Assembly (NCBI GenBank): GCA_000092065.1
Contig: CP000596.1
From: Ostreococcus lucimarinus
Taxonomy: Eukaryota
Length of the DNA: 64,000 bases
Direction: 5' to 3' (one strand)
Positions 1,254 to 32,010 of the stretch are shown piece by piece; position 1 is the stretch's first letter; the number at the start of each line of letters is the position of its first letter. Both the position numbers and the translations under genes were made by a program. The notes beneath the pieces are model-generated. The model made no database searches. It saw only the letters and a program-made list of their open reading frames with translations, and was not told the origin of the DNA.

Positions 1254-4200
1254 TCAGATGACGGAGCTGTAGCCGTCGACTTGGCGTGACGTCGTCGCGA
1301 CGAGCGACGTACGTTCGGACATTTCGGCGTCGGCTGGACGCGCGCGCGCGCGGAACGCGAACGCGAACAGCGCGACGCACAGCGTGAACGCGAAGGGAGT
1401 GTAAAAAATTGCGACCTTTTGACTGCCGTCGATGTCATCTTGAGGGCTCGATGATGCGAGAGATGATTTTTGTCGTGGAGAAGATCCCGACGACCCTAGT
1501 TGTGGCGTTTCGGCGGTGCTCGCGCCGACGCGCACAGGTGCGACGAATTCAAACTCAGCCGCTGGGTTGCCTGCGACGTCGGTCACTTCCGTAACAGTCA
1601 CTTTGTGATAGCCTTGTGAAAAGTATGGAAACTTCATCAACCAGTGACCACCAGCGCCATCGTTAACGCATTGAAGGACGTACTGTCTCAAGTCTTCGTT
1701 GGAAACGGCTTCGAAGGGACCCGTCGACGAGTTGCCTCGCTTGGCCGTGATCACTTGCTTCGTGCAATCAATGTCTTCCATGAAATCGACGCGTTGCGTT
1801 ACCTGTGAGCTCACATATTTGAAATCACCGACGAGCGGGTCCTTCGTATCTATCTTCACCATGAGATTTTGATCGCTCACAAATTCGTGCACTGACGGCT
1901 TTGCGAGGTGAGATCCGCCCACGCACATTGTTTTCAATCGGATATCATATTTCCCATCTTTATATCCACTCAGAAGTTTGTTGTAAGGGTCGTTTAGATC
2001 CCAGTCAAAGATGCAACCGTCTCCACCCCGCGACTCCGGGCAAAGTAAATTGAAATTCTTATTCGTGCCGGCACCGCGCTCGGCGTCTTTCGCTGTGATC
2101 CATTCGCCTCCTGATACCGAACGATATTGCACGTAGACGTAGGCGAGATTCCCATTCGTCACCAACGCTTCGGACGTGGATGCAGTTTCCTTGGGCCAGA
2201 GAGAATATCTATTCGGATTTACGACCGAGATGCTCAAAACGCTCGAATCAGACGCTGCGCTCTTCTCAAAGTAACTTGCTTCCTTGCTGAGCGTAGACGA
2301 GTGAAAAGCAACTTGAGGGCAATCTTTACTCCACGACATGGCACCGAGTGTAACACTGCTCGAGATGATCGGGCGATACATGTATTCTTCAATCATCGAC
2401 TCACACAAGCTCACCAAGGAAATCCCCAGGTACGAGCTTTCATACACTCCGTCGCTTGGCTCCACGCTCAGAAGCACGCGACTCTCGCGCACAACGCTTT
2501 GCGAATCCATACGCTCTCCAGCCAATCTTCGTAGAGGTAGGACTTCACCGAATGACCACATTTGAATACCATTGATCGAGAACTTCATTCCCTGTAGGAG
2601 TGTTCCTTGTGCTGTAGTGGTTTGCGTGAGACGAGCGATTGCGTTTGCCAACAATCTCCCTGCTCTGACGCTCATTGACTGTTCGTATGACGCTACGATG
2701 TCTTCAATCCGCGCCTTCAGGTCTTGAATGTCATCAGACTCTGACGCAAAGCATTCGTGGCTATCCGCCATGGCGTATGCTGCATTCTTTACGAACGTTG
2801 CGTTGTCCTCGTTCAACTGTGCCGCGTTATGAGCAGCCGCGATGATTTTTCCAACGCAGTCGGCGACTCCATCTACCAAACGAAGGCCCATGTTGGCCAC
2901 TTCCTTGTAGGGCGACTCATTGCTGATGAGAAGTTGGATCAAAGCGTGCTCTCCTGGGTTCAGATTCGTGTTATGCGTCGACTCCTTACCTATGGTAACG
3001 CCAGCTTCTCGGAACATCGTCCATTTTTCTCCCGGACATTGACTTCTGCCGCCCATCGTGATGAACACTGGAGATCCGAAACGTTTGTCGGAACTGACCT
3101 GGAGCACAAACTTATCCCCAAAATCTGGGTCACCTAATGAGTACATCGTGCTCATGTGTTCATACTTTGCCCAGGCAAAGGCACGACTTTTTGAAACTGA
3201 CTTGCTCATATCCGTGGTAGCACCTACATGCCCCTTGACGATGGCGATTGAACCCGCGAAGGAGTATCCGTTTTCAGCTGAGCCGTCCAGGCTGAGCGTC
3301 CATGCGTAATCTTGACCGTCGACGTTTTCGTTGGAAGAAAATATGTACTCTGTCGAAGCACCACCGCCGCTAAACGATAGTAAAATTGCTTCATCAGCGG
3401 GTCCATTCGAATCTGTGGTGGAGTAGCCGCGGGGACCCATACGCCCTGTAAACGACGCATCGACTCGTTTCGTATCGTTCATGTAAATGGATGCATCCTC
3501 TCCGAGCGTAAGATCGCTAAGATCGCTCGATTGAAGTAGTTGTGACGACACGTCTAGAGCCTGCGTTTTGCATTTTTCTGTGATGCAGGATGAAACCGTG
3601 TTGTTCAGATCTTCACGAGTGGGGCTATTCATCCCCATTGTCGTGACGAGCTCATCCGCTTCTTGAAATTGCTCGAGGAACTTCGGCTTCATCCTTTCAC
3701 TCTTTCGTGACCAGAAAACCTTGCCGACGTCTGGGGTGGCGTCGTTATCGTCGTCGTCACCGCGGAACCCAAGGTTTCCACTCAACAAGTCTGAAAATAA
3801 AGTCCCGGGATTGCTAACGTAGCCACTGATGAGCTGGGACAATCGAGATTCATCCGTCTCATCCGAGAGAATGAAGTCGTTAAGTGTGTCTATAGTACCA
3901 TCCGCGTCGCCCAAGTCCCCTGGAACGCCATGTATGTATGGACTAACTCTGTCGATTCTCTTCCAAGCAAGCTTCAACTCGTCTATTGGGGTAGAAATCG
4001 GACCGCTCGCGTCACTTATGAACGATGTTTCCATTTTCTCGGCTTCCATACCGAACGCGGATTGTTCATCCATAAAAGGAACCATGATGCGCTCCATTGC
4101 GCCGTAGTTTTTACCGTACAACACGGGAGCGCCTTCCGCAGTCGGCTCCATAGGAACCTTGTACACTGTTGGCGAAGCCCACAAAAGTGTGCGTTGCCAC

Positions 4201-7200
4201 ACGTTAATTTTGTCAGCGATGTACTGTGGCCAATTAGGCGCTTCCATTTTAGAATCATCCCCGACGATGAGGCCGCTTTCCACGACGGAAAGCAAATACC
4301 GCAAGTTTGGAATCACTTTCGCTTCAATCGAGTGTACCGTGAATATGTAGGACGTGGGTTTCCTCGGCATCCATGTGATCGCCGTCGATATCCGCAAGCA
4401 CGGTTTATCGTCTTCCCTTAGCGCAAGATCGAGCGTATCGGCTAGCCTGTAGACAAGTTCAACGCCGCCACCTAGAATCGCATCGCCCTGTCGTCCCGGG
4501 ATGGCGACGTCGGTACTTGTCCGTATGACACGATTTATCGTAGCCGTGAGATCCCAACCGACGGCGGAACTCTGAGCGACCGAAAATTCTGGTCCAGACT
4601 CCTCATGGTATGCGTCAAAATCTATCTTAAAGAGAGGCATTCCGAGCTGGAATAAAACCTCCATGCCATACCCAGCGCCGAACCCAGGTTTCGCCTCCAC
4701 TTCGAGTTCTACGCCGCCACCGCCTTCGTGTGAACTCGACACAGACGCCGCTTGTTCGTCTGAAAGCTCCACGGACATGGTCACTTCCGTGCCCATAAGA
4801 AGTTCGGCGTAAGAGTTGCCACCGGGCGGATCATGTACCGTCATGTACACCAAACCTTCGAGTGGAACAGTTGCCCAATACACGTCATCGCTTTCTTCGC
4901 CGTAGATCCCTTCGCCTCGCGGTTTCGAGCCAAGAGAGATGAGCTCTCGTTTCAACGGAACTGTCACTGTCATCGAACCATCAAATCTACCCACAGTCAG
5001 TTCGACAGATCTGCGGTAATTTCCTGAGAGCTTAGGATCTCCCGCGACAATGAGTCGATCCGTCGTCTTCTCGCCCTCATCCGTGGGGAATAAAAGTTTG
5101 TCGCTCTCCGGATCGATCTCAACGTCAAAGTCGCACAATGGTCCTCCATTGCGATCGGTATGACATGGATTTTCGGCTATATCGGTGACGCTTTGTCTGA
5201 ACATGGCCACCGTCATCCCGCCGCTCTCGGCGCTAGGCAGTGTCAAGCATTCATCGAGTGAACCATTCTCCACATGCAGTTCAAGTACTTTGGCGCTCAC
5301 AAGTTTCGGCCCCAAAGCGTAGAGCCCTTCTCCACCGAAATCATCAAAAAATGGCGATATCCCAACAAAGTGGTTGTGTCTAATGCCACCAGCTTTCACG
5401 CCATCAACGTCCCAGCAGTAATCGCCATCGTCGGTGATTACAGAAAGATCTACGAACTCTGCGCACAAATAACCGTGGTACTTGTATCTCGCCGAATACC
5501 AAGTGTGCTCAGTGCGTAATGGTACAAGCCTTTCGATCGTTGTTGGATGCTGGCGGAAGTATGGAATGATGCCGTCTACTCCGACATGACACAACGCGTT
5601 CGGATATTTCTCCTCGCGCATCGCCGTGAAATTCGCTGTGGATGGGGCCTCTTCGATCACTACCGAGTAATCCATCGCGGCGAGTGGCCACCGTCTTCCA
5701 TTCGGAACTTCTTGATATGTTGGTATAACGTCTGAGTTTTCCTTGTCGCGGTCAGGTAGAGTCCAGCCGGATACTTGAGCCGAAGTGAAGATGGCTGGTG
5801 GGTGACAGCCATTGATGGGGGTAATTTTGAAAGTCGCCCCTGTGTAAAGCTTTTCACACTCACCTTGATAGACACCCAAATCGACGTTTGCCGTCGTCGT
5901 GTCTGAGAAGAAAATGTACTTTTTCGATGATACGGCGTGGAGAGTAACTGTGGTCGGTTTACCGTCGCAGCTCCAAATTCTCGTAGCTTCCACGATGGTG
6001 GTTCCCGAATAGCAGATTTCGTGACCGGGATATTCCGCGGTTATCGTGTAGGTTTTCCCGTTTGTGACTGCGAATTCGAACCAGCCAGTCTCGTCTGTAG
6101 TGAATTGTCGCGGCGCACCAGCCTCGCTTTCATCTTTGACATAAATGCTTGCCTCAAAAAGTCCACACTCGGACAACTCGGTCCATTCTATTGGGAACAT
6201 GACGGCACCCAAAATGACCACTGTCGTATCGTCCTGCATTTTCTGCTCTACCTGATGATTATGGGTCAGCTCCAGGTTGATGACATCAATATCAGCCGTA
6301 TCCGAAAATACGGTATCACTTTCATATAGGTCACCATCGTCATCCGAAGTTCCAGCTTGCTTGACGACGTCATTGTTGTTGAATACATGCACGATTTCTG
6401 GCAGCTGCTGCGTGCTCCACAGCGCGACATCCAATCCAGGACGAGTGACGCGCGCGAACAGCGTCTGCGGATCATCTTGAACCACGTCGTGCAGTAGTGC
6501 GGCATCTAAGTCAACGAAAATCTTATTCGAGCCGGGAGATGTAGCAAGTAACGGTGTTGCATACACGGAGGTCTCATCGCCGACGACAATGGCATCGAAC
6601 TCGGCGTCTTCGAGAGGGCGACAGTGATCGATTTTTGACACAACATCACCCCCACTCTCTGCGCTGAGCTCATCATACCACTCGTTCCATCCCTCGGAAG
6701 AGTACGGAACGTGGGCTGATGTCGATCTTCGAACGATGAAATTTTCGCACGCTTTGCCAAACACTTGGCTACGCGCATCCTGGTGAGACTCGTCGGCGAT
6801 CGCAGCGCTAACACTCTGCACGGTGAACAAATCGAAGTCGTATGTAATTTTCCGCGGAGGGAATACGAGCACTGGCTCGACAAACAATGTCCGTTGAGCC
6901 AGACGATGCGCCACACTGAGGAATTCTTGTGCGTTCAGAAGTCCATCACCGTCCATATCCAACGACGAATTCCAAAGTTCTTCTGAAATTATCGCGTACC
7001 CATTGCTTGGAAAACTCGCACCTTTCTCGATGATGGCGGTCAACTCTGACTTATCGATGCCCCCGCTTCCATCTGTGTCTGTCTCGTCAAAATCGTGCAT
7101 CGGTGGTGGAGGCGATGGCGGTGGTGGCGATGGCGGCGGCGGCGATGGCGGCGGCGGCGATGGCGGCGGCGGCGACGGCGGCGGTGGCGACGGTGGCGGC

Positions 7201-10200
7201 GGCGGCGATGGCGGCGGCGGCGACGGCGGCGGCGGTGACGGTGGCGGCGACGGCGGCGGCGGCGATGGCGGCGGTGGTGATGCGATGCGCTCGACCCAGT
7301 GAACGTTTGTGAGAGAACCGGCCTTGACAGAGATATCCGCATGCAGCGGGTACTCGGGAGTCTGTTGACTGGTGTAAAAGCGAATTTCATTCTTGAAGTA
7401 CTCCACGGCTCCGGCGTCGTTGATGACGATTTGCAGCGAGTCGGACGAAGAGTAAGTCCCAGCCATCGTATACTCACGCTTGCCTTTCTCGTACACCTTG
7501 ATCTGTTTGGTATGCGTACAAAAAATCGCAAAATCAAGACTTTGATAATTCGTCGAATCCGTCGTCGACTGAGAGTTCAAACCGATCATCCTGTTGTTGT
7601 ATCCTCCGGCACAGACTGCGGAGATGCCACGCACAGAGTCAGAACCATTTCGAATAGCGCGCTGACTCACCGCACCGGCGTCCCAAGCGCCAGTCACTGC
7701 AGCCGTGCGCGTGACTTGGCCGCTTTCTGTGGATTCGACGCCGACTTGCGATACCCACGCGACATGATCGTCCGCCACCGCCTTTCCTGGCGGCGGCGGC
7801 GGCGGTGACGGTGGCGGCGGCGACGGCGGCGGCGGTGACGGTGGCGGCGGCGACGGCGGCGGCGGCGGCGACGGCGGTGGTGACGCGATGCGCTCGACCC
7901 AGTGAACGTTTGTGAGAGAACCGGCCTTGACAGAGATATCCGCATGCAGCGGGTACTCGGGAGTCTGTTGACTGGTGTAAAAGCGAATTTTATTCTTGAA
8001 GTACTCCACGGCTCCGGCGTCGTTGATGACGATTTGCAGCGAGTCGGACGAAGAGTAAGTCCCAGCCATCGTATACTTACGCTTGCCTTTCTCGTACACC
8101 TTGATCCGTTTGGTATACGTACAAAAAATCGCAAAATCAAGACTTTGATAATTCGTCGAATCCGTCGTCGACTGAGAGTTCAAACCGATCATCCTGTTGT
8201 TGTATCCTCCGGCACAGACTGCGGAGATGCCACGCACAGAGTCAGAACCATTTCGAATAGCGCGCTGACTCACCGCACCGGCGTCCCAAGCGCCAGTCAC
8301 TGCAGCCGTGCGCGTGACTTGGCCACTTTCTGTGGATTCGACGCCGACTTGCGATACCCACGCGACGCTACCAAGTATCTCGCCCGCCACCGCCTTTCCT
8401 GGCGGCGGCGGCGGCGGCGACGGCGACGGCGGCGGCGGTGACGGTGGCGGCGACGGCGGCGGCGGCGATGGCGGTGGTGGTGACGCCATGCGCTCGACCC
8501 ATTTAACATCGCTGAAGGAACCACGCATAATAAAAGCAACATCCGCGTGCAGCGGGTACTCGGGAGTCTGTTGACTGGTGTAAAAGCGAATTTCATTCTT
8601 GAAGTACTCCACGGCTCCGGCGTCGTTGATGACGACTTGCAGTGTATCGCTGTCCGTATACGCCACTGCAGCACCCTTAATTTTTTTACCACCTTCGTAC
8701 ACTTCAACTGCATCGGAGTGAAAATTGCATCTGATGCTGAAGTCCATTCGACTGGACACGGTCTCTGCCGCGGACTGCCGATTCAAGCCGATGAACTTGA
8801 GGCCGGACTCAGACCCACAACGAGCCGAGATTCCGCGCACTGAGTCCGTCAGGCCGTGGATCGACCGACGACTCACCGCACCGGCTGCGGAAAAATAATT
8901 CCACCAATTTGGAGATCGCCGCCAAACTTTTCGATTCGACGCTTTGGCTCTGCGAAGCGTCACCCAGACCACGTTGCCAACCGCCGCTTTTTCAGGCGGC
9001 GGCGGCGGCGGTGGCGACGGCGGCGGTGGCGACGGCGGCGGTGGTATGTACTGCGCAATGTTCCCCAGGAGGCGGCGCCCCCAGCGCTGCCTACCCAAGA
9101 GTGACGTCGTGGTTTCAGGAGATGACGAATCATCTTCCTTTAAGACCAATAAGACTTTACTGGGTACGTTCAGCGGGTCTGTCACGTCCGACGTTTGCAA
9201 GATGGGCTGCGTCGTCTTTTCAAAAACTTCCACTTTGTACGCCCCGATGTCAACGTGAGTTTTGATTGGCGTCATACCCGTGGAGTCTGTGATATGAACA
9301 ACAAACGATCCTTCCGAATCAGTGACCGCGCTGAAAGGGCATCGCGTCTCACCACCCAATACTCTTATTTCAGTCAAATTGACGTCTCGAACCGCCACGA
9401 CTGATACAAACTGCCCGTGCATCGCCTGCACAGTGTCGCCCCCGCCCCCCCCGCATGTAAACGTCAAACAGTCTGCGAATTCATCACTGACATCAGACGG
9501 ATCGTGGTTACATGCATATCCATAATTAGTCGTGTCTTCGGGATCGATTTCATGCACGTGCACTTTCATCGGTAAACTAAGCGTCGGACTCGCCTGTTGC
9601 CGAAATTCAAATCCCGTTACTTCAACTTTGCTCGATTCCGCACCAAACGAAATCTCGGGGAAAGTTATGTATTGATCTTGAGATGATATGAGGGTGGCGT
9701 TGAAACGTCTCCACGATTCCTCATGTATGGTGAATGATTCCGTACTGGCGTCAGTGGCGGATGTTCCGCGCAAGTCGATTGACACCGCGCGTTCACCACC
9801 CAAAGACTTCGCCCAAAACGACACCACGACAGAATCTCCAGTCAGGGCGCGCAAAGACTCGCCAGGAACGTGCACCGTGACTGAAACGCCTGCGTCCACC
9901 GATTTTACAACGTCCTCGAAACCAGGTGGAGGCGCAGTTGGGCTCGCGGTTAAAGGACTGATGGCGCTTGTCTGAACAAGCTCGAGGCGTTCGGTGAGAG
10001 TATTAAGAGTGAAATGAGCTCCGGTGAAGTAGAACGTACTTTCCGACCAAGCTGATACAGTAAATCCGACGAAAGCGGCGTCCTCTAACGTGTGCTTAAG
10101 CCTTATTTTCCTCCATTTATTCGGTTCAGCTGTAATGACGAGCGCGTCACCAACGGTCTGACGGCCTGCTGCTGTAGTTTGTTGTTCATACCCTAAAATC

Positions 10201-13162
10201 TGGAAAGTCATAATCGCCTCCTTCCCGACGGCGCGTACCCAGCATTCCAACAACACTGTATCACCAGCTTCGGCGTCTAGTCGATCAGTATTTTTCGCCC
10301 AGAGTTTCTCGTCTGCTCGCACGAGTCGGATGACATCATTCTCGTAACGAGGTGGATCAACGATCACGTCTGGATCATCGCCTGTATCGCCAGAATACCC
10401 CAGTCGGTCGGTGAGAGAACCCTCGGCAAGTTGGCGTGCCTTGATCGATTGCGGCTGTAGACATACTTGAACACTGCCTATTGACATCCAAAGACCAAGA
10501 TCGACGCGCGCGTAGCCACCCGTCGATACGACGACAGATTCACCGGTAGGTATGTGATTCCCATCGGTGAGCGTGTACGCTTGTTCATTCAAAGGGTTTG
10601 AGTATGCGTGCTTGAAAAGTGCGACATTGCTGGAAGATGATTCGACGTCGTCGCTCGGCCGTAAAGTTATCGTCGAATTCTCATTTTCATCCGCGTCTGG
10701 AGGCCTGGACCCTCGGTAATTTGCGACCTCCCCATCTATTACGATCGGGTCGTGAAAATTAGCGCATATTCGGACGTCGGGTACTGGAACAGCGGAATCA
10801 CCGGCGTACACGTAACCACCTACCTCTCCGTGCCAGGGCGTGATGAATTTGAAAGGGACAGAGTTTATACTTCCACCGGATGATGTTTTCGTCACCACCT
10901 TATACTTCCAAATCTGTCCTGGGATTGCCGCCGCCTCTCTGTCGGCGAAAAGCAACGGCGCGTACGATCGATGACAGTACGTGAGGCCACTGTCAATCAT
11001 CACCACTGACTCATAAGGTGCATCCGTCAGAGAATCCTGCATGCTTTGACGAAGAATCTCGAACCCAACGTCATTCCAGGCGGTATCACGGAAGCTGAAA
11101 GTGACTCCTACTGGATCCAGTTTTCCGTTGACGTCAATAGTAGAACCATCGTAGTACAATCCACCTCCACATTCAAACTTTGAGTAAGTTTCCTCGCGAG
11201 CGTCCGAAATGACGCCACTTAAACACACAATTCTTCGAGCTTTTGGTGCGGATGATTGACGAAGCACGCAGCGCTTGTAATGTCCACATCTTACGGTATC
11301 AATGAACATCACTTCGCGTATCACTCCGGTATACACTCGAACGTCGTCGAATTCAAAATCCACCGCGCCAAGCAGTGTAACGTCCGTCATTGACTCGAGC
11401 GCGCTCAGCGGCCAAGTTTCATCGCGCGTGTAAGTCGTATCATCGATTACTGTGGCCTTTGCGTCACTCGTTGGATCTACGTACAATGTCATGAAATTCA
11501 CCGAGTTTACGGCGAACGCGATGAGGTGCCACTCCCCGTCGCACGCAAAATCAAGTTTCACATCCTTTGAGGATGTGAAAGCGCTCGGAGGATCCACAGA
11601 CTCCTTGACCTGATGAGATGCCCGCAGTTCGACCATGCCGTCGCTCGTACGTATCTTGAGGTATACGTGGAGTCTGTGATCGTGAAGTCCCAACTGTCCT
11701 TGAAACTGAGCGACCGTCATGAGTGATTCGTCGTTGGAGGATTTGGGTTGCGAGCAACGACTTGGATCGATGCGCACCCATGTGCTCATCGCGATGTCGT
11801 GCCCAAGCGTATCTTCTTTATCAAGAGAGTATGAATAATCGTTCGTCCCAGGATCATCCACTGCTTGAAGGCAGCGAAATCCGTTGCCCCCCGAACATCC
11901 CGATATTGTGCGAGCGGATTTCGGCTGCAATCTCATCGGGACGGAAGACTGTCCGTCGACGATTGGCGCGACCGAATCAAGCGATCCGTCGTGTAAAGGG
12001 TCTTCATCAAACGTAAATGCTGCCACGAGAGAAGCGTGTTCGTCGAGAAAGTCACTCGTTGCTGGGCGAATGTCCGTGAAGGAGATGGGAAGTTGAAGCG
12101 TCGTGCCGCCGACTTCATACTCTTCAAAGCGCACATCGACGACGTCGTCGACTGTACCGTCGGCAACGTTGATCTGATTGAAGAGTATACCATCCACGTA
12201 TGCGCAGACGTAATCGCCGTTCGTTGGCTTAGGACTGTACGACCATGCAGTGGTGAGCCCGTTGAGGCCACTCACACAGCGATTCTCCGTTTGCCAGTCG
12301 AGAGTCGGATAGGTGATGCTATCGATACTGAAACTGTTCGACGGAGCTCCGCTGCACTTGACGGGTCGAACGGGGATTTCCATCACGTCGACAATAGACA
12401 CTGCCAGATCTGTGTCGTGCGCGGCGCGAAATTGGTCATTCCAAACGTTGAGAATGTACCTCGAAACGCTTTGTTCCACCAACATGGCCTGAAGTTCATT
12501 CAGTCGCAGCAGTCCGTCGCTGGGATCGACGTCGTGCCTACGAAAGATGCTTTCCTTTGTCTTGTAAATTTCGCCATCATCGCACAGCACGTTGTTGAAT
12601 TGATCGTTACTCAGCAATATGTACCGGACCAGTTCTTCAAGCCCCGAATTCTGATTCGCGCTCGCTTGGCCGGCGGCGTTGAATCCGAGAGGCAGGTGCA
12701 AATCGCAACCCTTGATAACTTCGAAAGAGTGTTGACCAACGGTTTCCGAACCTGGAACGATGCCATCGACCGTAACAAAGTGACAGTTATAAGTTATGGT
12801 GTGAGATCCAACCGAGTGCGTCCCATCCAACTCTGTGAGCGCGAGCGCCTTCGGGAAAAAATCATTCCATTTGCGACACGGTAAGTTATCCGCGTAATCC
12901 GACTCGGAACACGACTGATCGTCTCGTTTCACGCGAACATCGCATCGGAGACCAAGCGCGTGATTGCTCACGCTCTCTTCATTCACATTCAGTAAACAAT
13001 CGCTCGCTTCAGCGCACGCGGGATGATGCACCGCGACTTGGAAATCGTACGAGTACGCCGCAACCCTCTCCGTGGTGGAACCAAATCTCACTTCAATCGC
13101 AGCACCGGCACCAGGCGGCGGCGGTGGACTCGGCGGCGGCGGGCTCGGCGGCGGGCTCGGCG

Positions 13163-13202
<40 letters not shown>

Positions 13203-13569
13203 CGGACTCGGCGGCGGCGGCGGGCTCGGCGGCGGCGAACAATTCGCTATACCCTCGCAATTCTCCGTTCGTGTTTGTCCCTCATACGCTCCACAACTTC
13301 GTCCACCGTTTCGCGGCTTGACGGTGATCGTGAACGTCTGCGAGTACGTCGCCGGTCCGCAAAAAGCCGTGCAACTCCCTTGCCAAAAGCCTACACAATC
13401 CGTTTTCGGCGGCGACGGCGACGACCCCCCGTGGACCCCTCGCAGCGACGACAGCGCGCTCGCGACGACCAACCCGCGCATCATCGTTCGCGTCGCGTCC
13501 CATCGACGTCCGGCGCCATCGCGCGTCGTCGACCGCGACGGCGCGCGTCGTTCGCGAAGCTGACGCGGC

Positions 13570-13571
<2 letters not shown>
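1254..13571 (-). CDS. Giant (about 4,080-4,105 aa) single-exon cell-surface protein with a C-terminal TM anchor. N to C: signal peptide, TSP1-like Cys motif, extensin-like (S)PPPP spacers, LamG/concanavalin-like region, three tandem ~190-aa repeats, EF-hand/dockerin-like Ca-binding pair, ~2,500-aa C-terminal ectodomain. Function unknown.
   Basis: The ORF is uninterrupted for 12,318 nt on the minus strand. The probable true start is the ATG ATG at 13479-13484, giving MMRGLVVASALSSLRGVHG, which looks like a signal peptide. The TSP1-like motif is CVGFWQGSCTAFCGP...RNGGRSCGAYEG...NCEG. SPPPPSPPPP runs are encoded by GGCGGCGGCGGCGAY tracts. The LamG-like signature is FACDGEWHLIAFAVNSVNFMTLYVDPT. 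The Ca-binding loops are DTDGSGGIDKSE and DMDGDGLLNAQE. The C-terminal TM helix is VAIFYTPFAFTLCVALFAFAF, followed by a short tail. Confidence 0.8.
7040..9060 (-). repeat. In-frame tandem array of a roughly 600-bp unit (two near-identical 603-bp copies plus one or two diverged copies) inside the giant gene. Each unit encodes a ~160-aa domain plus a PPPS spacer.
   Basis: The string cgctcgacccagtgaacgtttgtgagagaaccggccttgacagagatatccgcatgcagcgggtactcgggagtctg occurs at 7291 and again at 7894, a period of 603 bp (201 codons). A diverged copy begins at 8494. The duplicated spurious ORFs in the track (MILRFFVRIPN..., MNVCERTGLD...) reflect the same repeat. Confidence 0.85.
13113..13240 (-). repeat. 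Coding G-rich 12-15-nt periodic microsatellite (GGCGGCGGCGGGCTC-like) encoding the (S)PPPP extensin-like spacer. Similar tracts lie at about 7100-7290, 7790-7890, 8395-8490 and 8990-9045.
   Basis: The periodicity is visible directly in the sequence. Read on the minus strand it gives SPPPPSPPPPPSPPPP. Confidence 0.7.
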
Positions 13572-28203: not shown

Positions 28204-28743
28204 ATGTCGACGATGTCGATGATGCCGATCGCGTCGACGTCGGCGCGAACGACGCGAACGCGCGCGCGCGCGCCGAGAACGACGCAGACGCGGGCGCCGC
28301 GGATGAAGATGGGGCGGGCGACGCGAGCGACGACGCGGACGCGGGCGATCGCGAACGAGGCGCAGACGAGCGAGGAGTTGAACTTTTGGGGGAAGATGCG
28401 ACAGGCGTATCGAATCTTTTTCCCGCCGAGCGCGGAGGAGAACGCGCGGAACGAGGCGAAGAAGCGCCTGCGAATGATTCTCGTCGCCGATCGGTGCACG
28501 ATGAGCGAGAGCTCGATGGACGAGATGAAGGCGAAGATAATGACCGTGGTCGGGGAATTCGTGGACGTGGACGATTCGCAGGAGGTGGACGTGAGCATGA
28601 ACACGGATGAGGAGTTGGGGACGATGTACGCGGTGTCGATTCCGGTGAAGCGCGTCAAGGCGGAGTACGACGCGGAGAACGACGCGTACATGTTGGGGGC
28701 GCAGTTCGTGTACGACGACGAGAACGTGTGGGACGACGAATGA
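28204..28743 (+). CDS. MINE: Plastid division topological specificity factor MinE, with a transit peptide
   Basis: AKKRLRMILVADRCTMSESSMDEMKAKIMTVVGEFVDVDDSQEVDVSMNTDEELGTMYAVSIPVKRV matches plant MinE (KKRLRLMLVSDRC...VEVNMSTDE...AVNIPVRRV). The start is ATG 28204 (MSTMSMMP...). Confidence 0.85.
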   Translation: MSTMSMMPIASTSARTTRTRARAPRTTQTRAPRMKMGRATRATTRTRAIANEAQTSEELNFWGKMRQAYRIFFPPSAEENARNEAKKRLRMILVADRCTMSESSMDEMKAKIMTVVGEFVDVDDSQEVDVSMNTDEELGTMYAVSIPVKRVKAEYDAENDAYMLGAQFVYDDENVWDDE

Positions 28744-28868
28744 TTAATTTTACTCGCGCATCGAGCGACGGGCGACGGACGGCGCGCGCGCGACGCGCGT
28801 CGATCGAGGCGACCGCGACCATTGTAAGCAAATCAAACGACAGACGGACCGCGTCACTTCGCCTCGCG

Positions 28869-29441
28869 ATGTCCGACGCGCGCGCGGCGTCGGGGCTCGA
28901 CCCCAAAACGTGGGCCGGCGCCTTCGACTGCGCGCGGTGCGCGCGCAAGCGCCTGCCCGCGATCGAATTCAGCAAAAAGGCGCTGCTCAGGATGCGCGAG
29001 CGCGGCGACGATGCCGGGACGTGCAAGGCGTGCGTCGACGCCGAGGCCGCGATCGAGCGCGCGCGCGCGAGGGAGAGCGCGAGCGCCGTCGACGACGACG
29101 CGGACGCGACGTGCGCGGCGTGCGGGGCGACGAAACCGGCGAGCGCGTTCTCGAAGACGCAGCGGCGCGGCGCGGCGCCGCGGTGCGGCGAGTGCGTCGA
29201 CGCCGCGGCGAGGGACGACGCGGCGCGCGGCGCCGCGGCGCTGGCGAAATCGTTGGAATCGGCGAGGGTCGACGCCGCGAGGGTCGGGGCGACGCTGGGG
29301 GATCACGTGCGAGAGACGAATCTGGACGCGGAGGCGGTGACGGGGTTGCGGGCGAAGTTCGTCGGCGCGCGGGGACGCGGACGCGGGCGAGGACGGTCGG
29401 CGAATCCGAACTCCATGCTCGGCCGAGGGGGGCGGAAGTGA
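28869..29441 (+). CDS. Small tandem CxxC zinc-ribbon protein with two C-x2-C…FSK…C-x2-CVD repeats (Stc1-like domain)
   Basis: The two repeats are CARCARKRLPAIEFSKKALLRMRERGDDAGTCKACVD and CAACGATKPASAFSKTQRRGAAPRCGECVD, followed by an RG-rich tail. The overlapping ORFs 28910-29455(+) and 28987-29490(-) are Arg/Gly-rich and were rejected. Confidence 0.4.
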   Translation: MSDARAASGLDPKTWAGAFDCARCARKRLPAIEFSKKALLRMRERGDDAGTCKACVDAEAAIERARARESASAVDDDADATCAACGATKPASAFSKTQRRGAAPRCGECVDAAARDDAARGAAALAKSLESARVDAARVGATLGDHVRETNLDAEAVTGLRAKFVGARGRGRGRGRSANPNSMLGRGGRK

Positions 29442-29522: not shown

Positions 29523-31736
29523 CTATTCGTCTCGCGCCCAGACGTCGCTGTAGACTCCGGGACGCGAGCTCTTCGGCGGATTGGCGCGACGACGAATGTA
29601 CGGCCCGCTCGATCTGAACCGACCGGTGCCGTCGTCGGGGAGCGCTAAAGCGACGTCACCGATGAGCGGGGTCGCAGCCTCGGTCCTGTCGGTGCGACGT
29701 CGATTGAATGAAATGGTTGAATCGTCGTCGTCGTTGACGCTGTACGAAAACGCCTTGACGGGCTTGTGCGTCGCCGTGCCGAATTCGTCGGCATGTGTGA
29801 TGTACAAGTCTTCATCGAACGCCAAAAGATCGACGTCTTCGTCTTCGTCGTCGCCGTCTATGATGCCGTAATCATCGACGTCCCGGTTGAACGCGCGACG
29901 AAGCGTGCACACGCTCGCCGCGACGAACGTGATCAACACGACGACGGAAAAAGACAGGAAACGCCAGACATCCGCGTTGACCTGCGCCGAGGCGCGCTTG
30001 TACACTCGAACGTAGTCGACGTAATGAAACATGTCATCGTCGCACTGATTGAGCGCCGCAGGCATGCCGAACGGCGACACCGCGGTGTTCAGGATGAGAT
30101 AAAACGGCCATCGCGGAATGATGGGCACATTAAAGCGCGTCAAGTGATGCACGGGATGACCGTCGACGGTGAACGTCAAGCTATCCTTCGACCACTCCAC
30201 CGCATACGTGTGGAAATCCGCGCTGAAATCGATCGCGGGGTCCATCATGGGCGGGTACGCGCTTCGCGAGAAGCCTTCGGCGCCGCACTCCGCCTTTGGG
30301 GCGAAATGATATCCCGATTCCACCGTTCCCGCACGCGTCCCGGGCCCGCCCAAACCTCTGCCGTACGACTGCATGATGTCAATTTGCCCGCCAAGCGGCC
30401 AGCACGCGCGCTTCGGCACGCTCTTCTCGGGGTCAGGTAACATCCAGTGCTGCGGCCAAACGCCCGGACACTTGGACTCGGGAATCTTCGCGCGAATCTC
30501 AACTCGCCCGTACGTTTGCGTGAACGCCTCTTTCGTGTCCACCCAGCACGACAGGAACGGATACTGATCACCGCGACCACGATGACCCACGGCACCTCCG
30601 TGTGGCGTCGCGGCAGTGCGCACGCCTCGCTGACGCCGCGTCCCGATGACGAGCGCGCCGTCGACGACTTTACACATCTCGGGAACGTAAAACTGTTGCT
30701 GTCCGCCGTGTCGCTCTAAACCTGGCGCGCTCTCGTTCACCTTCGGTCGCCATTTCGATAAATCTAACGCATCACCGTCGAACTCGTCGCTGAACGTCAA
30801 CTCCCATCCCGGCTGTCTCGCGTCCTTCGACGAGGCGCCCTTCGTCGACCCCGGCACGCTTTGCGGAAACCCACGTCGAGGGGTCGCGCCCGCGCGCCGC
30901 CGCGCCGCCGCGCGCTCTTTTATCGCCGCCGCGTTCGCTGGCGGTCGAGTCGGCATCGTTCTCGCCGCCGACGGCGCGTCTTCTTCCCCTCCCGTCGCGC
31001 CGTCGCCCGCGCCGGCGAGCGCGTCTCTCGCGCGACGCAGCGCCTCGTCTGGATCCTCCAACGCCCCCAGCGCCGCCTCATCGCGTTCTCTGCGCATTCG
31101 CGCCCGTCTAATTTTCATCATCTGTCGCTTCGTCGGCGCCCTCGCGCCCAACCGCGCCGTCGAACCGCCCGCGTCGTCTTCGTCCTCCTCCTCGTCCTCG
31201 TACGCCTCCTCGTCCTCGTCCTCGTCCGCCCCGTACATCTCGTCCGGATCGTCCGGCGCCTCGTCCTCGACGATCCTGCGCATCAACGCGTCGTCCATCG
31301 TCCCGAACCGCGTCCCCGCGCTCGCGTCGACGTACCCCGGCGCGTCGCCCGCGTCGTCCCGCGCGTTGGGTGTTGCGTCTCGCGTCGTCCCGTCCCCGCC
31401 CGCGCCTTCGCCCGTCGCGCGTCCCGATCGCGCCCTCGCGAGCGTCGCGAGCGTCACCGCGCACATCGCCGCCCGCGCGCGACGCGACGTCGCGCCGCGC
31501 GTCGCGCGCCGCGATCGGCGCCGCGTCGAATGCGCGGCGTCCATCGCCTCGCGCGCGTCGTCCCGCGTCGACGTCGTCGCCGTCGGTCGCCGCGCGCCGC
31601 CGCGCGCGTCGCCGCCGTCGCGCGTCACGCGCGCGACGTCGCCGTGTGTCGCGCGCCGCGCCGCGCGACCGACGACCGACGCCGCGCGCGGGATGTTGGC
31701 GCCGCGCATAAAACCAATCGCGCGATTCGTTCGCAT
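29523..31736 (-). CDS. GH16-like (laminarinase/beta-1,3-glucanase fold) membrane protein with both catalytic Glu replaced by Gln. It has a long disordered acidic/basic N-terminal region, one TM helix after the GH16 domain, and a C-terminal tail.
   Basis: GH16 signatures are VWPQHWMLP and FHTYAVEWSKDSLTFTVDG. The active-site strand is WPLGGQIDIMQ, where GEIDIME would be expected (CAA/CAG codons at + 30369-30389). The TM helix FLSFSVVVLITFVAASVCTL follows the domain. There is no N-terminal signal peptide in the ORF starting at ATG 31734-31736, so the start may differ. Confidence 0.65.
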   Translation of the reverse strand: MRTNRAIGFMRGANIPRAASVVGRAARRATHGDVARVTRDGGDARGGARRPTATTSTRDDAREAMDAAHSTRRRSRRATRGATSRRARAAMCAVTLATLARARSGRATGEGAGGDGTTRDATPNARDDAGDAPGYVDASAGTRFGTMDDALMRRIVEDEAPDDPDEMYGADEDEDEEAYEDEEEDEDDAGGSTARLGARAPTKRQMMKIRRARMRRERDEAALGALEDPDEALRRARDALAGAGDGATGGEEDAPSAARTMPTRPPANAAAIKERAAARRRAGATPRRGFPQSVPGSTKGASSKDARQPGWELTFSDEFDGDALDLSKWRPKVNESAPGLERHGGQQQFYVPEMCKVVDGALVIGTRRQRGVRTAATPHGGAVGHRGRGDQYPFLSCWVDTKEAFTQTYGRVEIRAKIPESKCPGVWPQHWMLPDPEKSVPKRACWPLGGQIDIMQSYGRGLGGPGTRAGTVESGYHFAPKAECGAEGFSRSAYPPMMDPAIDFSADFHTYAVEWSKDSLTFTVDGHPVHHLTRFNVPIIPRWPFYLILNTAVSPFGMPAALNQCDDDMFHYVDYVRVYKRASAQVNADVWRFLSFSVVVLITFVAASVCTLRRAFNRDVDDYGIIDGDDEDEDVDLLAFDEDLYITHADEFGTATHKPVKAFSYSVNDDDDSTISFNRRRTDRTEAATPLIGDVALALPDDGTGRFRSSGPYIRRRANPPKSSRPGVYSDVWARDE

Positions 31737-32010
31737 CGCGCGCGCGTTTTACCCCATCATCGCGCGTTCGCGTTCGCCGACCCCGCGACGCGCGTAAATT
31801 CCGAGATGGGCGTCGCGAGGCGCGGAATGCGCGATCACCGATCGACGGCGTCGATGACCGATCGTGGGAATCGCGGTTACGGGCGCGACGCGCGATCGCG
31901 GAATTCACGCGCGCGCCGGCGCGAACCCCGCGGGGCGACCGGCGGCACATCGTCGCGCGTCGCGGAGCACTCAGGACGCTCTTAAGAAGGCAACGCGCGA
32001 GGATAAAATC

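What the first reader, a model, noticed from the sequence alone, without database searches (positions are those of the whole stretch)
30369..30389. GH16-like protein with both catalytic glutamates replaced by glutamine (Q-I-D-I-M-Q) and an unusual topology
The GH16 fold signatures are intact (VWPQHWMLP, FHTYAVEWSKDSLTFTVDG). The nucleophile and the acid/base of the E-x-D-x(x)-E strand are both Gln, encoded as CAA/CAG where GAA/GAG would be expected. That predicts a catalytically dead glucan-binding pseudoenzyme, comparable to insect βGRP/GNBP. The ORF also has no signal peptide, a 330-aa disordered acidic/basic N-terminal region, and a single TM helix after the GH16 domain. That topology would put a glucanase fold on the cytosolic side unless the true 5' end differs.
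Basis: partly seen in the sequence, partly recalled or inferred. Interest (0 to 1): 0.6.

Follow-up and report, generated by a model that had tools for sequence, protein, structure and literature searches.

The report
Catalytically dead membrane-anchored glucanase-fold protein
A gene of a tiny marine green alga (Ostreococcus type) encodes a membrane-anchored protein whose glucan-cutting fold has lost its cutting residues. It is still strictly conserved, so it most likely binds something rather than digests it; its odd-looking topology is an artefact of an over-long reading frame.

Summary
Window 30369-30389 (minus strand) encodes G-Q-I-D-I-M-Q. Gln451 (CAA) and Gln456 (CAG) sit where 93 of 93 other GH16 homologues have the nucleophile and acid/base glutamates. 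A third near-invariant Glu (NNELQYY) is also Gln.

It is neither a sequencing error nor a pseudogene. Independent assemblies carry the same motif, and one syntenic orthologue keeps Gln with a synonymous codon. dN/dS of the domain is 0.13-0.15. The AlphaFold model (pLDDT 89) matches laminarinases.

The loss is family-wide. All Mamiellales-type members (named anchors: O. tauri and M. commoda) lack the acid/base Glu (Q/R/S/A/G). The nucleophile is Gln in every Ostreococcus-type member and in the separate, more divergent lineage P0234.

The "unusual topology" is not supported. Orthologues have N-terminal signal peptides, and the window keeps a weak aligned hydrophobic segment. The domain has six invariant Cys and an invariant N-x-S sequon, and the transmembrane helix has its positive charges on the C-terminal side. 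That indicates a type I protein with the domain outside the cytosol.

Best reading: a non-hydrolytic, lectin-like binding module joined to a conserved cytosolic tail motif. The ligand is unknown. Analogous to insect βGRP/GNBP, but of independent origin. Moderate interest.

The parts
29523..31736 (-). Maximal ORF (737 aa + stop) of the GH16-like gene. No intron is needed. The true start is probably downstream of 31736.
   Evidence: It aligns collinearly with orthologues. It has syntenic orthologues in L001-L004.
31542..31544 (-). Met65, a candidate start codon 24 aa before the hydrophobic segment. Met91 at 31464-31466 is another candidate.
   Evidence: Upstream of about 31650 the window/L001 DNA alignment has frame-breaking indels; downstream only 3n indels occur. 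Codon 37 is polymorphic (V/T/M/A), and some haplotypes carry a 41-aa in-frame deletion.
31437..31472 (-). Weak signal-peptide h-region AAMCAVTLATLA (aa 89-100), followed by R-A-R-S-G.
   Evidence: It aligns with the clear N-terminal hydrophobic segments of the orthologues. The mean Kyte-Doolittle value of about 2.0 over 12 residues is my hand calculation from the sequence. The segment falls below the 15-residue scan threshold.
30822..31436 (-). Fast-evolving Ala/Arg/Asp/Gly/Glu-rich linker (aa 101-305). It holds one island conserved among Ostreococcus-type orthologues, GYVDASAGTRFGTMDDALMRRIVEDEAPDDPDEM (aa 134-167, nt 31236-31337).
   Evidence: Composition. dN/dS is 0.62-0.69 for aa 65-300, which contains this linker. 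The island is visible in A3.
29991..30821 (-). GH16 (laminarinase-like, GH16_3-type) beta-jelly-roll domain, aa 306-582.
   Evidence: Pfam. PDB phmmer 1e-25/1.5e-26. AF2 pLDDT 89.4, pTM 0.88. Foldseek top hits are laminarinases, E=3.9e-23. dN/dS is 0.13-0.15.
30729..30737 (-). N334-E-S336, an N-glycosylation sequon. It is invariant in 16/16 family members of A3.
30687..30707 (-). GGQQQFY, which replaces the N-N-E-L-Q-Y-Y motif of active GH16_3 enzymes. Gln346 stands where 91/93 homologues have Glu, and Gly344 aligns with the sugar-contacting Asn (SCLam N53).
   Evidence: SCLam contacts are from PMC7961093.
30435..30461 (-). VWPQHWMLP. W431 corresponds to the -1 subsite stacking Trp (SCLam W129).
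   Evidence: W is present in 93/93 outside homologues.
30369..30389 (-). G-Q-I-D-I-M-Q, the catalytic strand. Q451 (CAA) is at the nucleophile position, D453 is kept, and Q456 (CAG) is at the acid/base position.
30306..30329 (-). GTVESGYH. H477 is the conserved GH16 His (SCLam H163). E473 is invariant in the family, at a position that is Y/H/F/E in active enzymes. A clade-specific loop GRGLGGPGTRA precedes it.
   Evidence: The register was ambiguous, and was resolved with the bridging sequence P0243.
29901..29966 (-). Transmembrane helix WRFLSFSVVVLITFVAASVCTL (aa 591-612). RRAFNR lies on its C-terminal side.
   Evidence: Hydropathy scan and flanks. It is present in all full-length family members.
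29526..29900 (-). Cytosolic tail (aa 613-737) with the family-invariant short motif PLIGDVALALPDDGTG (aa 690-705, nt 29622-29669).
   Evidence: Invariant P, L, G, L, P, G columns in A3. The motif is kept in P0233 and largely in P0234 (APLIGGVRPAPGG); P0235 keeps only GGVTLRLPD. dN/dS is 0.23-0.27.

Best explanation
The gene is the Ostreococcus-type orthologue of a family so far found only in Mamiellales-type picoalgae. The two named anchors are O. tauri XP_022840479.1 and M. commoda XP_002502320.1, both annotated only as 'glycoside hydrolase family 16'.

Architecture: signal peptide, then a variable acidic/basic linker, then a laminarinase-like GH16 beta-jelly-roll, then one transmembrane helix, then a cytosolic tail. 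It is a type I membrane protein whose GH16 domain faces the secretory lumen or the cell exterior.

The canonical retaining machinery has been dismantled. The acid/base Glu is absent in every family member, which implies an ancestral loss. The nucleophile Glu became Gln in the Ostreococcus lineage, and the third conserved Glu (NNELQYY) is also gone.

The domain is nevertheless kept under strong purifying selection. It therefore most likely acts as a non-hydrolytic binding module. That is lectin-like, probably for a beta-linked glycan in the remodelled cleft. The transmembrane helix couples it to the conserved tail motif PL[IVM]G[GD][VI]xLx[LM]PxD, for sorting or signalling.

Shown: the sequence facts, homology, fold, family-wide substitution pattern, purifying selection and synteny. 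Inferred: topology (strongly), absence of hydrolytic activity (from the established GH16 mechanism), ligand binding and tail function (weakly).

The overall confidence of 0.6 combines about 0.85 for 'inactive by the canonical mechanism', about 0.75 for the type I topology, and about 0.4 for 'binds a glycan'.
For: Motif and codons.

Alignment to solved laminarinases puts Q451/Q456 on the catalytic Glu residues. In SCLam, E144 and E149 are the nucleophile and acid/base (PMC7961093). E414A or E419A in the EXDXXE motif is used to disrupt GH16 catalytic activity in S. pombe Ghs2 (PMC13612389).

Outside the clade, 93/93 homologues have E, D, E. Inside it, the acid/base is E in 0/21 and the nucleophile is Q in 7/21. 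The exhaustive profile search adds P0233 (EIDIMA), P0234 (QVDVAA) and P0235 (DIRVAQ).

Not an error or a pseudogene:
- Identical codons in L001, and a CAA->CAG synonymous difference in L002.
- QIDIMQ in every full-length member of the 90% cluster that was read.
- Conserved synteny.
- dN/dS of 0.15 and 0.13 for the domain.

The fold is intact: pLDDT 89.4, pTM 0.88, and Foldseek E=3.9e-23 to laminarinases.

Topology: N-terminal hydrophobic signal sequences in orthologues, haplotypes with a canonical signal peptide, six invariant Cys and an invariant N-x-S that are absent from bacterial homologues, and positive charges after the TM.

Binding platforms W431, W446, F556, D453 and H477 are kept in Ostreococcus.
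Against: No biochemical or expression data exist here.

The sugar-contacting Asn (SCLam N53) is lost. In the divergent members P0234 and P0235, W427 and W431 are also lost. So canonical -1 subsite glycan binding cannot be the function shared by the whole family.

E473 is invariant and faces the cleft side of its strand, so an unconventional catalytic arrangement is not excluded, especially in the members that keep the nucleophile.

The window's own h-region is weak (12 residues) and its start codon is unresolved. No coordinates of the model were available, so no distances or disulfide geometry could be checked.
Confidence: 0.6

Rival explanations
1. The domain is a binding or scaffolding module for a non-carbohydrate partner (a protein, or a structural role in the secretory pathway or at the surface). 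The ancestral sugar cleft is vestigial. The conserved function sits in the clade-specific elements: the GRGxGGPG loop, E473, VPIIPRWPF and SPFG.
For: Divergent family members lose the -1/-2 aromatic residues and even the central Asp (P0235: DIRVAQ, W427F, W431E; P0234: W427S, W431R). They keep the six Cys, E473, the clade-specific motifs, the TM and the tail motif. The NNELQYY Asn/Glu are lost family-wide.
Against: Within Ostreococcus, Micromonas and their near relatives, W431, W446, D453 and F556 are invariant and H477 nearly so (R in M. commoda). This is hard to explain if the cleft were unused. The E->Q replacements are isosteric, the kind that preserves ligand binding in engineered GH mutants (general knowledge).
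Confidence: 0.2
2. The protein is still an enzyme that uses non-canonical residues. Candidates are D453 and/or the invariant E473, or substrate-assisted catalysis on an N-acetylated sugar.
For: E473 is invariant in all family members and lies on the strand next to the catalytic strand, on the same face as H477. D453 is retained in all but one lineage. Fourteen of 21 family members keep the nucleophile Glu.
Against: The acid/base column is unconstrained (Q, R, S, A, G), and the nucleophile is Q in 7 of the 21 family members aligned, and Q or D in two further divergent members. The E473 position is Y/H/F/E in active enzymes, so it is not a known catalytic site. No GH16 with relocated catalytic residues turned up in the papers read. 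Nucleophile or acid/base mutants of GH16 are used as inactive controls.
Confidence: 0.08
3. The topology is. There is no functional signal peptide in this species, so the GH16 domain is cytosolic and the protein is tail-anchored-like.
For: The window's hydrophobic segment is only 12 residues and fails a 15-residue hydropathy threshold. The closest relative L001 has no ATG near it.
Against: Orthologues have clear signal peptides, and the segment is aligned with them. Some haplotypes have a canonical signal peptide. Six invariant Cys and an N-x-S sequon make little sense in the cytosol. The positive-inside rule places the tail in the cytosol. About 125 residues follow the TM, so it is not tail-anchored.
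Confidence: 0.05
4. The two Gln codons are a sequencing or assembly error, or the locus is a decaying pseudogene.
For: None found. Each change is a single G->C transversion from GAA/GAG.
Against: L001 from a different sample has the same codons. L002 has CAG/CGC. The ORF is intact at 737 aa, synteny is conserved and dN/dS is 0.13-0.15.
Confidence: 0.01

Closest known systems
Ostreococcus tauri XP_022840479.1 / CEG00617.1 'Glycoside hydrolase, family 16' and Micromonas commoda XP_002502320.1 'glycoside hydrolase family 16 protein'
   Same: They are members of the same family. The O. tauri cluster representative is 74% identical over the query (78% over the domain) and has QIDIMQ. The M. commoda cluster is about 52% identical (53% over the domain) and has EIDIAG. 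Both have the same signal peptide-linker-GH16-TM-tail architecture.
   Different: The database names come from homology only. None of the papers found describes the missing catalytic residues or any function. The window is a different Ostreococcus-type lineage from O. tauri.
GH16_3 laminarinases (e.g. Thermotoga maritima Lam 3azx, T. petrophila 4dfs, SCLam 6xof)
   Same: They are the best sequence and fold matches. They share the beta-bulge spacing x-I-D-I-M-x, both Trp platforms, the His and the FHxYxxEW core.
   Different: All three conserved Glu are Gln in the window. There are extra loops, six Cys, a membrane anchor and long non-catalytic regions. Hydrolysis by the canonical mechanism is not expected.
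Arthropod βGRP/GNBP and other non-catalytic GH16_4 binding proteins
   Same: They are GH16-fold proteins in which catalytic residues are mutated and which act as glucan-recognition proteins rather than enzymes (PMC6827312; PMC2375007).
   Different: They are metazoan GH16_4, secreted and soluble, and often carry an N-terminal glucan-binding extension. The algal family is nearest to GH16_3-type laminarinases, is membrane-anchored, and lost its residues independently. Its ligand is unknown.
Fungal Kre6/Skn1/Ghs2 (GH16_2, Pfam PF03935)
   Same: They are membrane-anchored GH16 domains on the extracytosolic side. There is a weak PF03935 match (28.3 bits).
   Different: That score is below the Pfam cutoff of 30 bits. 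The fungal proteins are type II, with the TM before the domain, and need an intact EXDXXE motif (PMC13612389). PMC3797821 identified no GT48 glucan synthase partner in prasinophyte genomes.
Metagenomic protein P0243 (313 aa, unnamed)
   Same: It is the nearest catalytically intact relative found. It has a signal peptide, 'CWPVGGEIDIMESYGNG', a similar insertion after the catalytic strand and HYVDWVRVW. It is 32% identical, E=2e-46.
   Different: It keeps both Glu and has no TM or tail. It lacks four of the six family Cys.

Membership tests
GH16 (CAZy family / Pfam PF00722), as a homologous fold family | Significant sequence match to the family model | tested here: met
   PF00722 E=1.9e-10, 40.9 bits against a cutoff of 22. 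PDB phmmer gives 1e-25 to laminarinase 3azx.
GH16 (CAZy family / Pfam PF00722), as a homologous fold family | Beta-jelly-roll (ConA-like) fold | tested here: met
   AF2 pLDDT 89.4, pTM 0.88. Foldseek top 30 hits are almost all GH16 beta-glucanases/laminarinases, best E=3.9e-23, TM(target) 0.82.
GH16 as an enzyme family (retaining glycosidase/transglycosidase) | Catalytic motif E-x-D-x(-x)-E with nucleophile and acid/base Glu | tested here: not met
   The window has Q451-I-D453-I-M-Q456. 93/93 outside homologues have E...E.
GH16 as an enzyme family (retaining glycosidase/transglycosidase) | Measurable hydrolysis or transglycosylation of a beta-glycan | not testable with these tools
   This needs recombinant protein and activity assays.
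GH16_3 laminarinase subfamily | Closest relatives are laminarinases, with beta-bulge spacing in the catalytic strand | tested here: met
   The best PDB hits by sequence and fold are almost all GH16 laminarinase-type beta-glucanases. The spacing x-I-D-I-M-x is kept. No CAZy subfamily HMM was available, so formal subfamily assignment was not done.
GH16_3 laminarinase subfamily | Substrate-contact residues (SCLam Y52, N53, W129, W139, D146, H163, W240) | tested here: inconclusive
   W431, W446, D453 and H477 are kept, and W240 becomes F556. N53 becomes Gly, Y52 becomes His, and the NNELQYY Glu becomes Gln.
Arthropod βGRP/GNBP (non-catalytic GH16_4) | GH16-like domain lacking catalytic residues | tested here: met
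Arthropod βGRP/GNBP (non-catalytic GH16_4) | Membership of the metazoan GH16_4 clade, secreted and soluble, with an N-terminal glucan-binding extension | tested here: not met
   The nearest relatives are bacterial or algal laminarinase-type sequences. A TM helix is present. No Pfam domain is found in the N-terminal region.
Arthropod βGRP/GNBP (non-catalytic GH16_4) | Binds beta-1,3-glucan | not testable with these tools
   This needs a binding assay.
Kre6/Skn1/Sbg1 (PF03935, GH16_2) | Match above the Pfam gathering threshold | tested here: not met
   28.3 bits against a cutoff of 30, and only a C-terminal fragment of the model is matched.
Kre6/Skn1/Sbg1 (PF03935, GH16_2) | Type II topology (cytosolic N-terminus, TM before the GH16 domain) | tested here: not met
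   The TM lies after the domain at aa 591-612, and the N-terminus carries a signal-peptide-like segment. The fungal architecture is described in PMC13612389.

The most novel reading that the evidence does not exclude
Wall-less marine picoalgae (Ostreococcus, Micromonas and relatives) carry a lineage-specific surface receptor built from a silenced laminarinase. It would let them sense, capture or be recognised through external beta-glucans such as diatom laminarin, or it would serve as a glycan-dependent attachment or defence factor in prasinovirus infection. The invariant cytosolic PLIGGVxLxLPxD motif would relay the signal or drive endocytosis.
Probability: 0.12. Interest if true: 0.75.

Novelty: new variant of a known kind. 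Interest (0 to 1): 0.42.

Why it matters
Ostreococcus and Micromonas are among the most abundant eukaryotic phytoplankton, and they have no cell wall. A strictly conserved, membrane-anchored, catalytically silenced glucanase fold is therefore unlikely to be a wall-remodelling enzyme. It is a candidate surface or secretory-pathway lectin, a class of protein almost unstudied in these algae.

It would also be a second, independent case of a GH16 enzyme turned into a binding protein, after the arthropod βGRP/GNBP. It comes with a natural series of intermediates: E..E, then E..Q/A/G, then Q..Q. That series could be used to study how glycosidases become lectins.

In practice, database entries calling these proteins 'glycoside hydrolase family 16' or 'beta-glucanase' should not be counted as glucan-degrading capacity in CAZyme inventories or metagenome surveys.

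Tried and rejected
- **Sequencing error or pseudogene:** rejected.
- **Kre6/Skn1 membership:** rejected on Pfam score and topology.
- **E473 as a replacement of the conserved His or a relocated acid/base:** pairwise HMMER and one MAFFT run aligned E473 with the GTxH histidine. The larger alignment with the bridging sequence P0243 puts H477 there, and E473 at a position that varies in active enzymes. The idea is kept only as a low-probability rival.
- **Virus-encoded homologues:** the scan of viral contigs found none. A preprint mentions ConA-like lectin/glucanase genes in OtV hypervariable regions, but no link could be made.
- **Endogenous beta-1,3-glucan as ligand:** PMC3797821 reports no GT48 in prasinophytes, while PMC2850359 mentions a 'callose synthase' annotation in O. 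tauri. This stays unresolved.
- **Foldseek against AFDB:** the library was unavailable.
- **Literature searches for a description of this family as inactive:** nothing found.
- **Species names for most family clusters:** could not be obtained. Only O. tauri and M. commoda are anchored.
Full report
**What is at the coordinates**

The interval 30369-30389 lies on the minus strand inside a 737-codon ORF, 29523..31736. Read on that strand it is GGG CAA ATT GAC ATC ATG CAG = G450-Q451-I452-D453-I454-M455-Q456. (from aa 508), are present.

The window is GC-rich eukaryotic DNA. Its neighbours are an SNF2 helicase, MinE, an Stc1-domain protein, ribosomal protein L30e and an alpha/beta hydrolase. The family anchors below place it in an Ostreococcus-type green alga.

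**Is it GH16, and do the Gln residues sit on the catalytic positions?**

Yes.
- Pfam PF00722 matches above threshold: E=1.9e-10, 40.9 bits against a cutoff of 22.
- phmmer against PDB sequences gives 1e-25 to the Thermotoga maritima laminarinase 3azx. It aligns 'cwplggqidimq' with 'GWPTCGEIDIME'.
- An AlphaFold2 model of aa 296-600, built on a 115-sequence alignment, is confident: pLDDT 89.4, pTM 0.88.
- Its best Foldseek matches in the PDB are GH16 laminarinases: 4dfs E=3.9e-23, TM 0.82 on the target.
- In SCLam, a solved GH16_3 enzyme, E144 and E149 of the same strand are the nucleophile and acid/base, and D146 is the auxiliary residue (PMC7961093).
- In the 115-sequence alignment, all 93 homologues outside the algal clade have Glu, Asp, Glu at these three columns.

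A third Glu that is present in 91/93 of those homologues (N-N-E-L-Q-Y-Y) is also Gln here (G-G-Q346-Q-Q-F-Y), and the Asn that contacts the -2/-1 sugars in SCLam (N53) is Gly.

**Error or pseudogene?**

Neither.
- A metagenomic contig from another sample (L001, 97% identical protein over the GH16 domain) has the same CAA...CAG.
- A syntenic orthologue from another lineage (L002, 76% identical) has CAG...CGC. This keeps Gln at the nucleophile position through a synonymous change, and has Arg at the acid/base position.
- Every full-length member of the 90%-identity cluster that was read has QIDIMQ.
- Gene order around the locus is conserved: hydrolase, L30e, GH16, Stc1, MinE, SNF2.
- Nei-Gojobori dN/dS for the GH16 domain is 0.15 (dS 0.08) against L001 and 0.13 (dS 0.93) against L002. 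The N-terminal region gives 0.62-0.69 and the TM plus tail 0.23-0.27.

**Family-wide pattern**

The word-indexed search and an exhaustive profile search of 1.84 billion representatives recover one compact clade and then a steep drop to ordinary bacterial GH16 (33-36% identity).

Two clusters are anchored by named proteins: O. tauri XP_022840479.1 'Glycoside hydrolase, family 16' and M. commoda XP_002502320.1. The rest are unnamed marine metagenome lineages.

| Lineage | Catalytic strand motif |
|---|---|
| Ostreococcus-type | QIDIMQ, QIDIMR, QIDVMQ |
| Intermediate lineages | EIDIMQ, EIDIMA, EIDIA[ASA] |
| Micromonas | EIDIAG |
| Divergent member P0234 | QVDVAA |
| Divergent member P0235 | DIRVAQ |

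No member has Glu at the acid/base position (0/21, plus the three added). That column is unconstrained. The simplest history is loss of the acid/base in the family ancestor, followed by E->Q at the nucleophile in the Ostreococcus lineage, and separately in P0234.

All members share features that active relatives lack:
- six invariant Cys (aa 355, 397, 423, 445, 484, 565);
- an N-x-S sequon (aa 334-336), invariant in the 16 aligned members but lost in the divergent P0234 and P0235;
- a loop G[RK]GxGGPG after the catalytic strand;
- invariant E473 in GTVESGYH;
- VPIIPRWPF and SPFG;
- a TM helix directly after the domain;
- a tail motif PL[IVM]G[GD][VI]xLx[LM]PxD.

The nearest relative with an intact E..E motif is an unnamed 313-aa secreted protein, P0243. 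It has CWPVGGEIDIMESYG and is 32% identical.

**Topology**

- Most orthologues begin with an obvious signal sequence, for example MGSGRWGVRFTLVLLLLLVCCTSVSSSE and MNATRRMMEKGVFVLAFAMAVMPMTKA. The O. tauri NCBI model has ...RRRGVTMGVVIVVVVAVMCAGVRG.
- A DNA alignment with L001 shows frame-breaking indels upstream of about 31650 and only 3n indels downstream, so the first about 30 codons of the maximal ORF are probably not coding.
- Codon 37 is polymorphic (V/T/M/A).
- Some haplotypes carry a 41-aa in-frame deletion that yields MTRGATSRRARAAMCAVTLATLARARSG, a conventional signal peptide.
- In the window itself the candidate starts are Met65 (31542-31544) or Met91. This is unresolved.
- The TM helix (aa 591-612) is followed by RRAFNR.

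Together with the invariant cysteines and the sequon, this indicates a type I protein with the GH16 domain in the secretory lumen or outside the cell, and a 125-aa cytosolic tail. This is an inference from sequence. It was not tested experimentally, and I had no signal-peptide predictor.

**What it most likely does**

By the established retaining mechanism of GH16, a protein with Gln at both catalytic positions cannot hydrolyse glycosidic bonds. Nucleophile and acid/base substitutions are the standard way to make inactive GH16. The fold and much of the cleft are nevertheless conserved. W431 (-1 platform), W446 (-2 platform), D453 and F556 (for the +1 Trp) are invariant, and H477 nearly so (R in M. 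commoda), in the Ostreococcus, Micromonas and near clades. The three Glu->Gln changes are isosteric.

I therefore favour a non-hydrolytic binding module, lectin-like, anchored in the membrane. The conserved tail motif would mediate sorting or signalling.

There are cautions. The Asn/Glu of NNELQYY are gone. Two divergent members have lost W427/W431, and one has lost even the Asp. A canonical glucan-binding mode therefore cannot be the property shared by the whole family, and a non-carbohydrate ligand is a serious rival.

An unconventional catalytic arrangement involving the invariant E473 is a minor rival. Its alignment with the conserved His in some pairwise alignments was not upheld when the bridging sequence P0243 was included. 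H477 is the conserved His, and the E473 position is Y/H/F/E in active enzymes.

**Comparison with what is known**

Non-catalytic GH16 proteins are known. In GH16_4 the beta-1,3-glucanases cannot be separated from homologous binding proteins whose catalytic residues are mutated (PMC6827312). Insect βGRP/GNBP lack one or more catalytic residues and recognise microbial glucans (PMC2375007).

The algal family works like these in the sense of a silenced GH16 fold, but it is not a member. Its nearest relatives are laminarinase-type (GH16_3-like) sequences. It is membrane-anchored, has no recognisable N-terminal glucan-binding domain, and lost its residues independently.

It is not a Kre6/Skn1 protein either. 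PF03935 scores below threshold, and the topology is the reverse.

The proteins are already in public databases under homology-derived names. I found no paper that notes the missing catalytic residues or assigns a function.

**Verdict**

- The sequence observation is confirmed.
- The 'dead enzyme' reading is supported, and extends to a whole lineage-specific family.
- The glucan-binding analogy is plausible but untested.
- The 'unusual topology' is an artefact of the maximal ORF and a weak h-region.

I rate it a new variant of a known kind, of moderate interest. Its value lies in a natural series from enzyme to pseudoenzyme in ecologically dominant, wall-less picoalgae, and in correcting CAZyme inventories.

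Noticed in passing
window 1254-13571 (-): A 4105-aa ORF fills the lower-GC part of the window (GC 0.51-0.56 against about 0.65 elsewhere). It has no Pfam match at E<=1e-5. It has a signal-peptide-like N-terminus, several (SPPPP)n extensin-like linkers and a single C-terminal hydrophobic helix, so it looks like a giant type I surface glycoprotein.
   Followed up: partly
window 31745-32010 vs L001 5621-5890: The shared divergent promoter region between the GH16-like gene and the L30e gene is about 97% identical (mismatches and small indels) between the window and L001. Synonymous sites of the flanking gene differ by 8-14%. This suggests constrained regulatory sequence. Just downstream (31660-31742) the alignment breaks down with non-3n indels.
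   Followed up: partly
window about 31500-31630 (-), codons 37-78 of the maximal ORF: The same species shows population polymorphism here. Codon 37 is V, T, M or A in different assemblies, and some haplotypes (P0130, P0134, P0132) lack 41 codons in frame. This moves an ATG to 13 residues before the hydrophobic segment.
   Followed up: partly
P0243 (metagenome, 313 aa); P0234, P0235 (divergent family members): P0243 is a secreted, catalytically intact relative that shares the CWP-GG-EIDIM-SYG context. It bridges the family to ordinary GH16. P0235 comes from a much lower-GC organism and has DIRVAQ in place of the whole catalytic motif, but keeps the Cys pattern, E473, the TM and part of the tail motif (GGVTLRLPD).
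   Followed up: partly
window 28728-29441 (+): The small gene immediately downstream of the GH16-like gene has an Stc1 domain (PF12898, E=1.4e-7). It is syntenic in all the related contigs that extend that far.
   Followed up: no
literature (bioRxiv 10.1101/2025.08.15.670463): [quoted passage not shown] My scan of viral contigs found no homologue of the host protein, so any relation is open.
   Followed up: partly
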